A stretch of 22,155 nt of DNA from a virus (lineage: Duplodnaviria; Heunggongvirae; Uroviricota; Caudoviricetes). Every line of letters begins with the position of its first letter. Position 1 is the stretch's first letter. The position numbers are program-made. The stretch lies in the IMG/VR virus record IMGVR_UViG_2684622582_000011, positions 1 through 22,155 of that record, one strand, 5' to 3'. Positions 12,001 through 15,000 of the stretch are shown here, piece after piece.

Positions 12001-15000
12001 TACAGCCAAAAGCATCCATCTTCGTGACGTTACGACCGTAACGGGCAATGGCCTGCGTGTCCTCCACAAGCTCTGTCGCCGTCTCCCAGCCGTTATCCGG
12101 GTCAGTCCAGTTCACCTCAACGGCATTATGGCGGTCCTTCAGGGCGCTGAAGCTGTAGCGGAACGGCGCACCATCACCCGGCATCACCACATTACTGCGG
12201 GTATAGGTCCATACCTTATCTGATGGCCGGTCCTGCACGAACGTCAGCGTCTGCCCGTTCCATACCGGCATACAGCGCATCGCCGAGCAGAAATCACTGA
12301 GCACATCCCACGCCTTGCGCTGTGTGGTCAGGTACGCGTTACAGGTGATGCGCGGTTCCGTGCCGCCAAATCCGTCGGGTACCGACTGGTCGCTGTACTG
12401 GCCGATGACATACAGCGCCCATTTGTCCACATCTGCCGCACCAAGACGTTTTCCCATACCATAGCGCGGGTGGGTCAGCATATCCCACAGACACCAGGCA
12501 GGATTATTGCTGTATGCCGGTTTTAAGGTCCCGTCCCAGATACCGCTGTATTGCCGCGTCTGCGGGTTATAGTTCGACGGCACCTGCAGAATGCGCCCGC
12601 GAAAATGATAATTACGGTTCACCTGCTGGCTGCCGAACTGTTCCGAGTCCACCTGCAGGCCGACCAGTGCCGTGTTCGGGTAGCGCTGCTCCACATCGAT
12701 GATTTCGGTGTATGACGACCAGACCGTTTTGTTCTGAAGCTGGTCTGTGGTGCTGTCCGGCGTCATCCTGCGCATCCGGATACTGAACGGGCGCGGAGGC
12801 AGGTTATCCACCACCACCGAGGCCAGATACTGCGAGGTGGTTTTTCCCTTAATGGTGATGTCTTTTTCCGTCACCCAGCCACCGTTACGCTGTATCTGAA
12901 CCAGCAGGCGGACCTCCGACGGCTCCCTGTCTCCCTTTGAGGTGGTTTTCACCAGTGCCTGCACACCGAAAGTCAGGCGCAGACGGTCGATGTTTGCTGA
13001 CGTGATGGTGCGGGTGAGCGGATTGTCATATTTTAATTCTGCACCGATAACGGTTTCTGAACCGGATGATTCAAATCCCTCCGGCGGCGTCTGCTCCTGC
13101 TCACCGGCACGGAACACCACCGTGACGCCGGAGATGTTGGTATTCCCCTTGCTGTCCAGCACCGGCGTGCCGTTCAGCAGCACGCTTTTCAGTCCATCCA
13201 CCGGACCTTCAACCGGCCCTTCGCTGATGGCATCAATCACACTCAGCAACTGGGAAGATTTAAGATTATCTCTGGCCTCGCGGGGGGTGCGGGCTTTACC
13301 GCCACCTTTTCCCATAATCAGCTCCTGAATATAAAAATGCGCCCGCAGGCGCATGGAAGGGTTTATTCTGATGAAAAACGATGTATTATTTTCTTATCCG
13401 ACGATGTCGGGTTAATAACTACGATAAATTTCAATACCGTGATGTTTACAGGGTTCCACCGCCCTGTTTTTTTTGTGATCTCAATAACCATACAAATAAA
13501 ATGGTCTTTACCTGTGGTTATTTCTGCATAGAATGCTCCTGTCTGCATGTAGCGCATCAGCAAGTCATAATAAACAACATTCCACGAAATCTTTCAGGGC
13601 ACCACTGCCCTGTTTTTTTATTTATATAAAAAAAGAAAATTTATCTTGTCTGTCAGAGAGACAGGCAACATACGCTTTGTGTATTGCGGGTATTATGACG
13701 GGCCCGCACGTGAACATATCTGTTAATTTATATAATATTATATTTTACCTTATTTAATTAAATTACATATTTTGTTTTTATGCTACTCCAGTTCTGTGAG
13801 CGGACTCTCAGAGAATACTGACACGGTTTTAGTGCCTGTGCTTTTTTCAGTATCATCCCTCCGTTTACAACTATTCCCTTACCGGCATAAAGATACGGGA
13901 TATACTTTCCGGAAGGGGCCACGGAAACTGCTTCCGCTTTTTTATCGTCCAATCACCACAACCTGACCGCCGTTTCCTTCATCTGCCGTGCTGATTTCCT
14001 GTGAAATCACCCGTGACCCCACGCGCATTTCACCGTACAGAACAGGCAGAACATTGCCCTGGGCAACCATGTTATCCAGCGAGGAAAAATAGGTGTTCTG
14101 TTTGCCGTTATCCGTTGTCTGCATGCGGGGCGTTTTCGGTTTCGGGGCCAGCATCTGTGCCACACCACCCAGAATCATACTGGCACCGAGAGAAAACAGG
14201 ACTGTAGTGGCGCTCAGTGTTGTGGCACTCAATGCTGCGCCCCACATAGCCAGAGAGGCTCCTGCAGTAACAAACGAGGCCGCAATGGCGACAGCCCCCA
14301 GAACAATCTGGAAAACACCGCCGTTTTTAGCGCCGGCTGTCCGGGGAACCAGGTGTATCACTGCGCCATCAGGAAGCGGCTCATGCAGACGGGAAGACAG
14401 CTCCCTCTCTCCTGTATCTTTCCCTGCTATCCGCACCTGATACCAGCCGTCGCTCAGTTTCTGACGAAACGCCGGGAGCTGTGTGGCCAGCGCCCGGATG
14501 GCTTCGGCACCTGTTTTCACACGCAGGTCGATGCGGCGGCCAAATCGTTGCAAATCCCCGTAAAGGCAGATGCGTGCCATGCCCGGTGACGCCAGACGGA
14601 GTGTGTGCGTCGCTGCCATTTGTCGGTATACCTCTCTCGTTTGCTCAGTTGTTCAGGAATATGGTGCAGCAGCTCACCGTCACCACAGTAAATGGCGGCA
14701 TGATTCGGCACCGATGAACCAAAGCAGCACAGCAGCACATCGCCCGGCTGTGCCTCTGTCAGTGCGACACGGTAAAAACCCTGTGTTTCAAGGTTATCCA
14801 GATAGAGATTCTGACCGTGACGCCACCAGTCATCCTCACGATGAAAATCAGGCAGCGTAATCCCCGCCAGATGGTACGCATCCCGGAACAGCGTGTAACA
14901 GTCCGTCACCCCGTGCTCAAAGCGCCGCCCGGTGAGATGCGGCACACAGCGGAACTTATGAATCGTCCCCCGGCAGACCAGCCACCACGGCAAATCACTC

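What the first reader, a model, noticed from the sequence alone, without database searches (positions are those of the whole stretch)
13316..13941. 626-bp AT-rich insert between tail genes I and J containing two paralogous hairpin/T-tract elements
In phage lambda, I and J are separated by about 60 bp. Here the I stop (13942) and the J start (13315) are 626 bp apart, and the gap is strongly AT-rich with no convincing ORF. It holds two similar plus-strand elements, CAGGG-N8-CCCTG-T8 at 13449-13474 and CAGGGC-N6-GCCCTG-T7 at 13595-13619, 147 nt apart and antisense to the late operon, plus an inverted repeat GTCTGTCAGAGAGACAGGC at about 13648-13666. A 64-codon minus-strand ORF (13758-13952) overlaps the I stop but has no recognisable features. 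An insertion inside an otherwise perfectly colinear and tightly packed tail operon is unusual. It could encode an antisense or small RNA, or be a remnant of a small inserted element.
Basis: partly seen in the sequence, partly recalled or inferred. Interest (0 to 1): 0.55.

Follow-up and report, generated by a model that had tools for sequence, protein, structure and literature searches.

The report
Candidate small-RNA cassette between tail genes
The 626-bp AT-rich stretch between tail genes I and J is a non-coding cargo cassette that most likely makes one or two ~80-nt regulatory RNAs from the strand opposite the tail genes, at the same site and in the same orientation as the known prophage small RNA PasB, so it is a rare new allele of a known arrangement.

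Summary

A near-identical E. coli prophage (98.4% in the flanks) has a 57-bp spacer there, so this is extra DNA. There are no target-site duplications: the whole spacer is swapped.

Nothing in it behaves like a protein gene. All six frames have stops, substitutions do not favour third codon positions, and no protein or RNA family matches.

Two diverged homologues exist, in 5 of 5426 E. coli genomes and one metagenome contig. They share the J-proximal ~325 bp. Its overall identity (72%) equals synonymous-site identity in J (75%), but substitutions cluster strongly. They spare a sigma-70 promoter (TTTACC-16-TAGAAT), the 12 nt at the predicted start and the region before terminator 2.

The I-proximal half exists in three unrelated versions, each ending in a plus-strand terminator against the I stop.

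PasB, a validated Hfq-dependent sRNA of EPEC, lies in the same gap on the same strand. Its sequence is not detectably related.

Verdict: a probable new sRNA cassette at a known cargo slot. Expression is untested. Interest is moderate.

The parts
13316..13941 (.). Whole AT-rich non-coding cassette that replaces the usual 57-60 bp I-J spacer
   Evidence: GC 0.36-0.40 against 0.56-0.60 in the flanks. The empty site in E. coli E7-1N7 has a 57-bp spacer. 79 of 80 IMG/VR relatives have 56-60 bp.
13332..13354 (-). J-proximal hairpin (13337-13354) plus T5 on the late strand, followed by J's Shine-Dalgarno AGGAG (13322-13326) and ATG (13313-13315). It is the counterpart of the hairpin found in empty I-J spacers.
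   Evidence: Terminator-like on the minus strand. 20/23 identical in the E. coli and metagenome homologues. An analogous hairpin is present in phage 21, where it is annotated as a terminator, and in E7-1N7.
13362..13389 (+). Candidate promoter P1 (TTTATT-16-TATTAT, 8 of 12 to consensus). Weak.
   Evidence: Present at the same place in all three sequence types. It lies within and next to the fully conserved block GGAAGGGTTTATTC, 14/14. It falls below the scan tool's threshold.
13396..13474 (+). Predicted small RNA 1 (about 79 nt). The 5' end is inferred from P1 and is uncertain.
   Evidence: Variable 5' hairpin, conserved GGTTAATAA and CAATACCGTNATG-TTTA blocks, then terminator 1.
13449..13474 (+). 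Terminator 1: CAGGG-N8-CCCTG plus T8
   Evidence: The homologues keep a hairpin plus T7 with a different interior, CAGGGCT-CATGY-AGCCCTG.
13483..13503 (+). Conserved A/T-rich block just upstream of the P2 -35 hexamer. It sits where an UP element would (inferred).
   Evidence: 18/21 and 19/21 identical, while neighbouring stretches are 4/8 and 5/16.
13507..13534 (+). Promoter P2: TTTACC-16-TAGAAT. The homologues have TTTACA-16-TAAAAT, 10 of 12 to consensus.
   Evidence: Conservation is -35 5/6, spacer 5/16, -10 5/6, discriminator 2/6.
13541..13619 (+). Predicted small RNA 2 (about 79 nt; 85-87 nt in the homologues). It has a conserved 5' block GUCUGCAUGUAG, a variable partner that forms a 5' stem-loop, an A-rich single-stranded linker with the conserved UCCACGAAAU, a U-rich stretch, and a terminator.
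   Evidence: 5' block 12/12, variable partner 5/15, linker and pre-terminator 23/27, terminator stems 12/12. Folds.
13595..13619 (+). Terminator 2: CAGGGC-N6-GCCCTG plus T7
13620..13921 (.). Variable I-proximal cassette. It contains the inverted repeat 13648-13666 and a very AT-rich core. Its content is unresolved; a third RNA or read-through product is possible.
   Evidence: Unalignable between the three sequence types. Only 8-of-12 promoter-like sites. The plus strand folds with z = -3.4 and the minus strand with z = -2.2.
13758..13952 (-). 64-codon ORF that overlaps the I stop. Judged not to be a gene.
   Evidence: No Pfam or PHROG match. No homologue among 5.8 billion proteins. Not called by gene finders on the NCBI contigs. 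Not conserved in the homologues.
13922..13943 (+). Terminator 3: CGGAAACTGCTTCCG, C, then T6. It abuts and overlaps the I stop codon.
   Evidence: The other two cassette versions end in different hairpins plus T7 at the same spot. The PasB terminator occupies the same position in EPEC.
13942..14619 (-). Tail tip assembly gene I (flank)
   Evidence: PF06805 Lambda_tail_I. About 87% nucleotide identity to lambda and phage 21.
9902..13315 (-). Tail tip / host specificity gene J (flank)

Best explanation
The normal 57-60 bp spacer between tail genes I and J has been exchanged for a 626-bp AT-rich, non-coding cargo cassette (a moron). The cassette carries its own transcription units on the strand opposite the late operon.

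The best-defined unit has a sigma-70 promoter (13507-13534). It is predicted to start at about 13541 and stops at the intrinsic terminator at 13595-13619, giving an RNA of about 79 nt. That RNA has the layout of an Hfq-binding trans-acting sRNA: a 5' stem-loop, an A-rich single-stranded linker with a conserved core, a U-rich stretch, then a terminator hairpin with a U7 tail.

A second unit upstream (about 13396-13474) is built the same way but has a weaker promoter. A third terminator (13922-13943) closes a variable I-proximal segment. It stops plus-strand transcription from running antisense into gene I.

The RNAs would be made in the lysogen, when the late operon is silent. They would act by base-pairing on host or prophage mRNAs, as PasB does from the same site.

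Late transcription can still cross the cassette. The three terminators face the other way, and J keeps its own hairpin and ribosome-binding site.

Shown: the anatomy, the absence of coding signal, the conservation pattern, the empty site, and the positional match to PasB. Inferred: that the promoters fire, the RNA ends, Hfq dependence, and all targets.
For: - Extra DNA at a defined site. E. coli E7-1N7 is 98.4% identical in the flanks and has a 57-bp spacer.
- Non-coding. In W against E and W against S comparisons every frame has stops. Substitutions are spread evenly over codon positions (at most 30 of 72 at any position). Synonymous to non-synonymous counts are at best 11:33. Frameshifting indels lie between nucleotide-conserved blocks. 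No PHROG or Pfam family matches. There is no protein relative for the 64-aa ORF, and none beyond the same E. coli lineage for the 62-aa ORF of the homologues.
- Substitutions are clustered: runs test p <= 0.0004, and 11 identity runs of 9 or more against 3.75 expected. They spare exactly the promoter hexamers, the A/T block upstream, the 12 nt at the predicted start, the pre-terminator region and the terminator stems. The promoter spacer (5/16), the discriminator (2/6) and the terminator interiors are free to vary.
- There are three plus-strand intrinsic terminators in 626 bp. The region has 5 terminator-like sites against 0.9 expected. The hairpin plus T-tract is kept in the homologues even where its sequence differs.
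- Precedent. PasB is 83 nt, validated by Northern blot, and 6.8 log2-fold lower without Hfq. It maps to NC_011601.1 1466343-1466261. That is inside the I-J gap of prophage PP6, antisense to the tail genes, with its terminator 6 nt from the I stop and a TTCACA-16-TATAAT promoter.
Against: - There are no expression data for this cassette.
- Overall identity of the shared module (72%) is no higher than four-fold-site identity in the flanking J (75%) and I (81%). The case therefore rests on where the substitutions fall, not on how many there are.
- Only three sequence types exist, and two of them are close. No base pair shows a compensatory double change.
- Fold z-scores are modest, -1.4 to -3.0.
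- Promoter-like hits are not enriched over shuffles on their own: 2 against 2.1. P1 matches the consensus at only 8 of 12.
- No Rfam family matches.
- There is no significant similarity to PasB.
- The cassette is very rare, in 5 of 5426 E. coli genomes.
Confidence: 0.55

Rival explanations
1. The cassette is a decayed moron. It once carried protein-coding cargo, as the sodC or phrog_914 occupants of the same slot do. What remains are leftover promoters, terminators and AT-rich debris that drift neutrally and do nothing now.
For: Module identity (72%) is about equal to synonymous-site identity of the flanks, 75-81%. The I-proximal half is unalignable between lineages. In E. coli the cassette sits in a broken prophage remnant with truncated I and J and IS elements. 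Other occupants of the slot are protein genes.
Against: Neutral decay does not predict strongly clustered substitutions that spare promoter hexamers at correct spacing plus the predicted +1 block. No frame retains any trace of a protein family. The cassette is retained intact in the remnant while the neighbouring genes are destroyed.
Confidence: 0.25
2. The cassette is a cis-acting element of the late operon or of prophage silencing. For example, it could be an AT-rich H-NS binding or insulator region, or a processing or stability element in the late mRNA that tunes J expression. On this reading the plus-strand promoters act only through convergent transcription or antisense pairing with the late transcript.
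For: The cassette is the only AT-rich island in the tail operon. It lies directly upstream of J's ribosome-binding site. Any plus-strand RNA is by construction fully complementary to the late mRNA. Antisense RNAs inside late genes can have phage-directed roles, as shown for STnc6030 of BTP1 (PMC7067206).
Against: The predicted RNAs do not overlap the I or J coding sequence or J's ribosome-binding site. Terminator 3 stops before I, and unit 1 starts about 80 nt from the J start and runs away from it. Nearly identical phages do without the cassette.
Confidence: 0.12
3. One or more small proteins are encoded, for example the 62-66 codon ORFs that are open in both lineages on either strand of the shared module, or a short toxin-like peptide with an antisense RNA (type I toxin-antitoxin).
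For: There are six ORFs of 64 or more codons in 626 bp. A minus-strand ORF (13363-13563) and a plus-strand ORF are open in similar positions in the homologues. The 62-aa ORF is annotated as a hypothetical protein in a few NCBI assemblies.
Against: No codon-position bias in any frame. The shared ORFs change frame inside nucleotide-conserved blocks and end at different places. There is no Shine-Dalgarno sequence before the shared ATG. No relatives exist outside this lineage among 5.8 billion proteins. No hydrophobic peptide is conserved. The plus-strand ORFs read through terminators.
Confidence: 0.06
4. Assembly or sequencing artefact.
For: None found.
Against: The identical insert occurs in three independent assemblies. 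Homologues occur in five complete E. coli genomes and one metagenome contig.
Confidence: 0.01

Closest known systems
PasB, a prophage-encoded Hfq-dependent sRNA of EPEC E2348/69 (Pearl Mizrahi et al. 2021, PMC8550237; distribution in bioRxiv 10.64898/2026.05.13.724894)
   Same: Same slot: the intergenic gap between tail assembly gene I and tip gene J of a lambdoid prophage. Same strand, antisense to the tail operon. Similar size, 83 nt against about 79 nt. It has its own sigma-70 promoter and an intrinsic terminator with a U7 tail placed against the I stop codon. A late-strand hairpin is retained next to J. Some PasB-type gaps (342 bp) also show a second upstream hairpin plus T-run on the same strand.
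   Different: No detectable sequence relationship. Smith-Waterman scores are no better than shuffles. A PasB covariance model gives 7-12.5 bits on small RNA 2, no better than it gives a generic hairpin on the other strand. This cassette is 626 bp against 240-342 bp. It has two tandem units plus a variable third segment. It is rare, in 5 of 5426 genomes against 1106 of 5426. Its expression is untested.
Anti-sRNAs AgvB and AsxR and other EcOnc sRNAs of EHEC lambdoid prophages (Tree et al. 2014, PMC4104026)
   Same: They are short sRNA genes carried as morons in lambdoid prophages. They often lie convergent or antisense to phage genes. Family members keep conserved 3' parts and have variable 5' parts. 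They are Hfq-bound.
   Different: They lie downstream of PR' near the Q, stx and lysis region, not in the tail operon. They are 51-60 nt long. No Rfam match to AgvB or AsxR was found here.
STnc6030 antisense RNA of Salmonella prophage BTP1 (Owen et al. 2020, PMC7067206)
   Same: It is a non-coding RNA expressed from a prophage's late or tail region on the antisense strand during lysogeny.
   Different: STnc6030 is longer than 700 nt and overlaps coding sequence (the injection and tailspike genes). It excludes superinfecting self phage through that overlap. The RNAs predicted here are about 80 nt and overlap no coding sequence.
Protein-coding morons in the same I-J slot (sodC; phrog_914)
   Same: Same insertion slot between the I stop and the J-proximal hairpin, with low GC. 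sodC is also transcribed antisense to the late operon.
   Different: They encode proteins. There is no sequence similarity to this cassette.

Membership tests
PasB sRNA family | Located in the I-J intergenic region of a lambdoid prophage, on the strand antisense to the tail genes, with its terminator next to the I stop | tested here: met
   PasB coordinates from table S6 of PMC8550237 were mapped onto the NC_011601.1 annotation. The window units lie on the plus strand between J (start 13315) and I (stop 13942).
PasB sRNA family | Sequence or structure similarity to PasB | tested here: not met
   Local alignment of PasB and of the whole PP6 gap against the three insert types scores no better than shuffles. 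A covariance model built from three PasB variants gives 7.0 bits (W), 8.2 (E) and 11.2-12.5 (S type and GPEC548) on small RNA 2. The rough E-values are 0.007-0.08 even when only the gap is searched. In the window a minus-strand hairpin scores higher, at 11.5 bits.
PasB sRNA family | Expressed as a discrete Hfq-dependent RNA | not testable with these tools
   No transcriptome data are available for any carrier of this cassette.
Hfq-dependent trans-acting sRNA gene (generic) | Own promoter upstream of a short non-coding transcript | tested here: met
   For unit 2 only. P2 matches the consensus at 9-10 of 12 in all three types. Hexamers are conserved and the spacer is not. Unit 1's promoter matches only 8 of 12, so for unit 1 the feature is inconclusive.
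Hfq-dependent trans-acting sRNA gene (generic) | Rho-independent terminator with a long U tail, preceded by a U-rich stretch (the Hfq-binding module of Otaka 2011 and Ishikawa 2012, as listed in the references of PMC4104026) | tested here: met
   Terminator 1 has T8 and terminator 2 has T7. GUUUA and AUCUUUC lie directly upstream of the stems, and this is kept in the homologues.
Hfq-dependent trans-acting sRNA gene (generic) | No protein-coding potential | tested here: met
Hfq-dependent trans-acting sRNA gene (generic) | Secondary structure supported by covariation | tested here: inconclusive
   There are 0 pairs with compensatory double changes, and too few and too similar sequences to expect any. 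The 5' stem of small RNA 2 is formed with different partner sequences in the W and E types.
Hfq-dependent trans-acting sRNA gene (generic) | Defined seed and mRNA targets | not testable with these tools
   The host genome is not available for target prediction. Conserved single-stranded candidates are UCCACGAAAU and the 5' block GUCUGCAUGUAG.
Moron (extra transcription unit between genes that are adjacent in related phages; Juhala et al. 2000, as cited in PMC4104026) | Absent from close relatives at the same junction, with deviant base composition and its own promoter and terminator | tested here: met
   Empty sites. GC 0.36-0.40 against 0.56-0.60. Promoter and terminators predicted.
Insertion sequence, MITE or other transposed element | Target-site duplication, terminal inverted repeats, transposase | tested here: not met
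   There is no duplication at the boundaries, and the empty-site spacer is replaced rather than interrupted. The only end-to-end inverted repeat (18 nt, 78%) is formed by the two boundary terminators, one of which has a counterpart in empty sites. No transposase-like ORF is present.
Type I toxin-antitoxin tandem repeats (such as Ibs/Sib) | Short hydrophobic toxin ORF conserved opposite a small antisense RNA; match to the Rfam Sib family or similar | tested here: not met
   No conserved small ORF on either strand. No Rfam match at E <= 1 apart from chance-level hits to ylbH and BaMV_CRE.

The most novel reading that the evidence does not exclude
The I-J junction of lambdoid tail operons may be a dedicated, hypervariable slot for riboregulators. 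Unrelated antisense-oriented sRNA genes would be swapped as cassettes by homologous recombination through the conserved 3' end of I and 5' end of J. Occupants include PasB in about 20% of E. coli genomes, the two tandem units here, and the three interchangeable I-proximal segments. Each lysogen would thereby acquire a different set of trans-acting regulators. In this toxin-converting (cdtABC) prophage the new RNAs might tie host physiology or toxin expression to lysogeny.
Probability: 0.3. Interest if true: 0.6.

Novelty: new member of a known kind. Interest (0 to 1): 0.4.

Why it matters
Prophage-borne small RNAs rewire host regulation in pathogenic E. coli, and PasB, AgvB and AsxR are examples. 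Only a handful of families are known, mostly from the Q/lysis region. This locus adds candidate sRNA genes that are unrelated in sequence to PasB, at the tail-operon site where PasB lies. That suggests the site is a general slot for such cargo and not a peculiarity of one sRNA.

The carrier is a cytolethal-distending-toxin prophage, so any regulatory output could bear on virulence. The practical value is a short, well-delimited and cheaply testable set of predictions: two RNAs of about 80 nt with defined ends.

Tried and rejected
- Rfam at E <= 1 on the window gap and on both homologue types, and at gathering score on the whole window: only chance-level hits.
- tRNA and tmRNA scan: nothing.
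- BLAST of the insert against phages, plasmids and E. coli by megablast: nothing. Only sensitive blastn found the five E. coli genomes.
- Exact-pattern scans gave few real hits.
  - IMG/VR: three patterns gave either no hit or chance hits inside a tail-protein gene.
  - One-genome-per-species collection: only chance hits in unrelated phyla.
  - Metagenomes: one real contig and one chance hit.
- Target-site duplication. GGAAGGG occurs near both ends of the W cassette. It is absent from the empty site and from the I end of the SKEV type, so it was rejected.
- Terminal inverted repeat as a sign of a mobile element: rejected. The arms are the two boundary terminators.
- Relationship to the other occupants of the slot (sodC, phrog_914): no similarity.
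- Protein searches of the ORFs found nothing meaningful.
- Complementarity of the 5' block of small RNA 2 to gene I. There is a 9-10 nt match at 14117, which is at chance level for a 22-kb window. The matching codons occur in only 2 of 82 related I genes, so the idea was dropped.
- RNAduplex target scan over the window was uninformative, because long interrupted helices dominate.
- PasB covariance model as a membership test: not significant.
- svsR lies at the 3' end of cI. The anti-sRNAs and PasA, PasC and PasD lie in the Q/lysis region. These are not this locus.
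Full report
**1. What is in the sequence**

The window is a lambdoid prophage read on the strand opposite its late genes. Gene I is 13942-14619 (-). J runs from 13315 down to 9902 (-), with its real start at MGKGGGK. The longer ORF from 13354 begins inside a hairpin.

Between I and J lie 626 bp at 36-40% GC, against 56-60% on both sides. 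This is the only AT-rich island in the whole tail operon.

- CAGGG-N8-CCCTG-T8 at 13449-13474;
- CAGGGC-N6-GCCCTG-T7 at 13595-13619;
- the inverted repeat at 13648-13666;
- the 64-codon ORF at 13758-13952.

A consensus scan finds five terminator-like sites in the region, against 0.9 +/- 1.0 in shuffles. Three are on the plus strand:
- a third, CGGAAACTGCTTCCG plus T6 at 13922-13943, which runs into the I stop codon.

One, ATGCGCCTGCGGGCGCAT plus T5 at 13354-13332, is on the late strand just upstream of J's Shine-Dalgarno sequence.

The two reader elements resemble each other only over the hairpin and T-tract (27/32; 0 of 500 shuffles). The sequences in front of them do not. Their spacing is 146 nt.

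**2. It is extra DNA, swapped in and not transposed**

The flanks are about 87% identical to lambda, phage 21 and many relatives. In all of these the two genes are about 60 bp apart.

A junction query made of 350 bp from each flank hits 4312 E. coli records. In an evenly spaced sample of 60 records, every two-piece junction but one has a 57-60 bp gap. That sample shows only the best place per record, so it under-represents other I/J alleles (see section 6).

The best hit, strain E7-1N7, is 98.4% identical in the flanks. It has a 57-bp spacer with a hairpin, T8 and J's ribosome-binding site.

Alignment shows that similarity stops about three codons inside the end of I and resumes only at J's ATG. 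The whole spacer, including the ribosome-binding site, is a different allele. No duplicated target sequence is present.

Among the 80 IMG/VR loci with the closest I proteins, 79 have 56-60 bp.

The same 626 bp is present in three independent NCBI assemblies that encode the identical I protein. An artefact is therefore excluded.

**3. Relatives of the cassette**

Megablast finds nothing in E. coli, phages or plasmids.

Sensitive blastn finds five E. coli chromosomes. In these a broken prophage remnant has a roughly 600-bp I-J gap that is 72% identical to window 13318-13640 only. A pattern scan of metagenomes adds one contig, SKEV01000451.1. Other pattern scans gave only chance hits.

The multiple alignment shows a shared J-proximal module of about 325 bp. 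It is followed by an I-proximal segment that exists in three mutually unalignable versions:
- the window;
- strains 3908, PK-F-10132 and MIN10;
- strain GPEC548 and SKEV.

Each version ends in a different GC hairpin plus T6-T7 on the plus strand, placed against the I stop. Strain MIN10 carries two copies of the remnant with two different versions.

**4. Not a protein gene**

Gene finders called nothing in the gap on the NCBI contigs. RefSeq annotates nothing there in the five E. coli genomes.

In pairwise comparisons of the shared module:
- every one of the six frames contains stops;
- substitutions fall evenly on the three codon positions;
- synonymous changes never exceed 11 against 33 non-synonymous.

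ORFs of 58-66 codons are open at similar places in both lineages. They shift frame between nucleotide-conserved blocks, end differently and lack a Shine-Dalgarno sequence.

PHROGs and Pfam give nothing below E = 0.05. The 62-aa ORF that a few assemblies annotate as hypothetical has none outside this E. coli lineage.

**5. Is the shared module conserved?**

This needed a control. Four-fold degenerate sites of the flanking J gene are 75% identical between the window and the E. coli type, and those of I are 81%. The module's overall 72% identity is therefore what neutral drift would give.

The signal lies in the distribution of substitutions. They are strongly clustered: 43 runs against 55 expected (p <= 0.0004), and 11 identity runs of 9 or more against 3.75 expected.

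The spared blocks map onto a textbook transcription unit. Identity between the window and the E. coli type, per element:

| Element | Identical |
|---|---|
| A/T-rich block at 13483-13503 | 18/21 |
| -35 hexamer TTTACC | 5/6 |
| 16-nt promoter spacer | 5/16 |
| -10 hexamer TAGAAT | 5/6 |
| Discriminator | 2/6 |
| 12 nt from the predicted start (GTCTGCATGTAG) | 12/12 |
| Following 15 nt | 5/15 |
| A-rich linker and U-rich pre-terminator stretch | 23/27 |
| Terminator 2 stems | 12/12 |

In the E. coli and metagenome types the promoter is TTTACA-16-TAAAAT, 10 of 12 to consensus.

The predicted RNA runs from 13541 to 13619 and is 79 nt, or 85-87 nt in the relatives. It folds into a 5' stem-loop that uses the conserved 5' block with a different partner in each lineage, then a long single-stranded A-rich linker, then the terminator.

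A second unit upstream ends at terminator 1. Its hairpin interior differs between lineages but is retained. It has conserved internal blocks but only an 8-of-12 promoter, TTTATT-16-TATTAT at 13362-13389.

With so few sequences, no base pair shows a compensatory double change. Fold z-scores are modest. No Rfam family matches and no tRNA is present.

**6. The decisive comparison: PasB**

A literature search for prophage sRNAs led to the Pas sRNAs of EPEC.

Table S6 of PMC8550237 places PasB at NC_011601.1 1466343-1466261 on the minus strand. PasB is 83 nt, validated by Northern blot, and 6.8 log2-fold down without Hfq.

On the annotated genome, that position is inside the 240-bp gap between the tail assembly protein I (ends at 1466255) and gpJ (starts at 1466496). 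PasB is on the strand opposite both genes. It has a TTCACA-16-TATAAT promoter and a hairpin plus T7 six bases from the I stop. A late-strand hairpin is retained next to J.

This is the architecture of the window cassette.

PasB-type gap sequence occurs in 1106 of 5426 complete E. coli genomes, again between I and J. Some of these gaps are 342 bp long and hold a further hairpin plus T-run on the same strand.

The I-J junction is therefore a known sRNA site, and more broadly a cargo slot. One IMG/VR phage has a Cu/Zn superoxide dismutase gene there, also antisense. E. coli strain 204 has a phrog_914 gene there.

**7. Is the window cassette a PasB relative?**

This was tested and not shown. Local alignments of PasB, or of its whole gap, to the three insert types score no better than shuffles.

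A covariance model built from three PasB variants scores small RNA 2 as follows:

| Sequence type | Bits |
|---|---|
| Window | 7.0 |
| E. coli 3908 | 8.2 |
| SKEV type and GPEC548 | 11.2-12.5 |

Even when only the gap is searched, E-values are 0.007-0.08 with a rough calibration. In the window a minus-strand hairpin scores higher.

Some short motifs are shared: CGNGUAAYAA, AACUCC, and CACUGC in the terminator. These are a lead only.

The cassette works like PasB in position, strand, size and signals. Membership of the PasB family is not supported.

**8. Mechanism proposed**

Shown:
- the cassette is a non-coding moron;
- its plus-strand signals are the parts that resist change;
- it is insulated at both ends, by terminator 3 toward I on the plus strand and by the J-proximal hairpin plus T5 on the late strand;
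- late transcription meets no correctly oriented terminator inside the cassette until that J-proximal hairpin;
- J keeps its own ribosome-binding site.

Inferred: in the lysogen, host RNA polymerase fires P2, and perhaps P1, and makes RNAs of about 80 nt with an Hfq-type 3' module. These act in trans on host or prophage mRNAs.

The I-proximal segment is unresolved. It has only weak promoter-like sites, and none at all in the SKEV version. It may be a read-through extension, a third RNA, or filler.

The main rival is neutral decay of an older moron, which the clustering argues against. A cis role on the late mRNA is possible. It is disfavoured because the RNAs avoid the I and J sequences and because near-identical phages lack the cassette.

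**9. Verdict**

The context makes the finding less strange than it looked. It is a rare, sequence-novel occupant of a slot already known to hold an Hfq-dependent sRNA.

Confidence that at least one unit is an expressed sRNA gene is about 0.55. Novelty: a new member of a known kind. Interest is moderate (0.4), and would be higher if the slot proves to be a general exchange point for riboregulators.

Noticed in passing
window 4750-6650: A second AT-rich (29-37% GC), ORF-poor island lies between cdtA and the DUF1353 / tail-fibre genes. It has 9 terminator-like hairpins against 1.3 expected. At least five are on the plus strand and end in the shared motif ACGGGATTTTTT (5168-5188, 5534-5554, 5657-5675, 5775-5795, 6475-6495). 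A 50-nt repeat (5478-5527 and 6419-6468, 88%) leads into two of them. The best window hit of the PasB covariance model lies here (5719-5796 +, 22.6 bits, E about 0.001). This may be another array of plus-strand sRNA genes. The region is rare in E. coli, and nothing there is annotated as RNA.
   Followed up: partly
window 2508-4745 (-): A cytolethal distending toxin operon is present: CdtA/C domain proteins at 3891-4745 and 2508-3083, and the CdtB-type nuclease at 3080-3925. It is about 91% identical to CDT-IV loci of E. coli such as APEC O1. The prophage is therefore toxin-converting. Fragments of an ABC-3 transporter gene (1-270) and of an integrase (1779-2087) lie at the left end.
   Followed up: partly
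L108 (NC_011601.1 1466256-1466495); L109 and L110 1025-1366: The published sRNA PasB maps exactly to the I-J gap, antisense to the tail genes. The papers read here describe it only as intergenic or embedded in a structural operon. The 342-bp versions of this gap contain a further hairpin (CCCCGGTATC-AGCA-GATACCGGGG) plus TTTTCTTT on the PasB strand, and a 9-of-12 promoter-like site upstream. This could be a second, undescribed RNA. Strain M21170 has a PasB variant with the same promoter and terminator but a different body.
   Followed up: partly
L077 3165-3880 (IMGVR_UViG_2778261068_000002): A 697-bp I-J gap holds a Cu/Zn superoxide dismutase gene (PF00080, E 1.6e-32) on the strand antisense to the late operon.
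   Followed up: yes
L023 1851-2327 (E. coli strain 204): A 477-bp I-J gap holds a 112-aa gene on the late strand. The product has a lipoprotein-like N-terminus and matches phrog_914 (unknown function, E 6e-33).
   Followed up: yes
L007 and L024 (E. coli MIN10, 860133 and 838185): The same truncated J / cassette / truncated I remnant occurs twice, about 22 kb apart, with different I-proximal cassette versions. One copy lies next to an IS3 fragment and an ompC-like porin gene, as in strain GPEC548.
   Followed up: no
window 13541-13552; L006 3165 and 3359-3367; L020 13669: The motif CATGTAG / GCATGTAG from the conserved 5' block of small RNA 2 recurs in the loop of terminator 1 of the E. coli type, and just before the last terminator of the SKEV-type cassette. 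Its 9-nt reverse complement, ACATGCAGA, occurs in the 3908-type cassette. The meaning is unknown and it may be chance.
   Followed up: partly
L006 3038-3060 and L020 13181-13203: The E. coli and metagenome versions have a 23-nt insertion next to the J-proximal hairpin. It looks like a tandem duplication of the ACGGAAGGGTTTAT... block that precedes candidate promoter P1.
   Followed up: no
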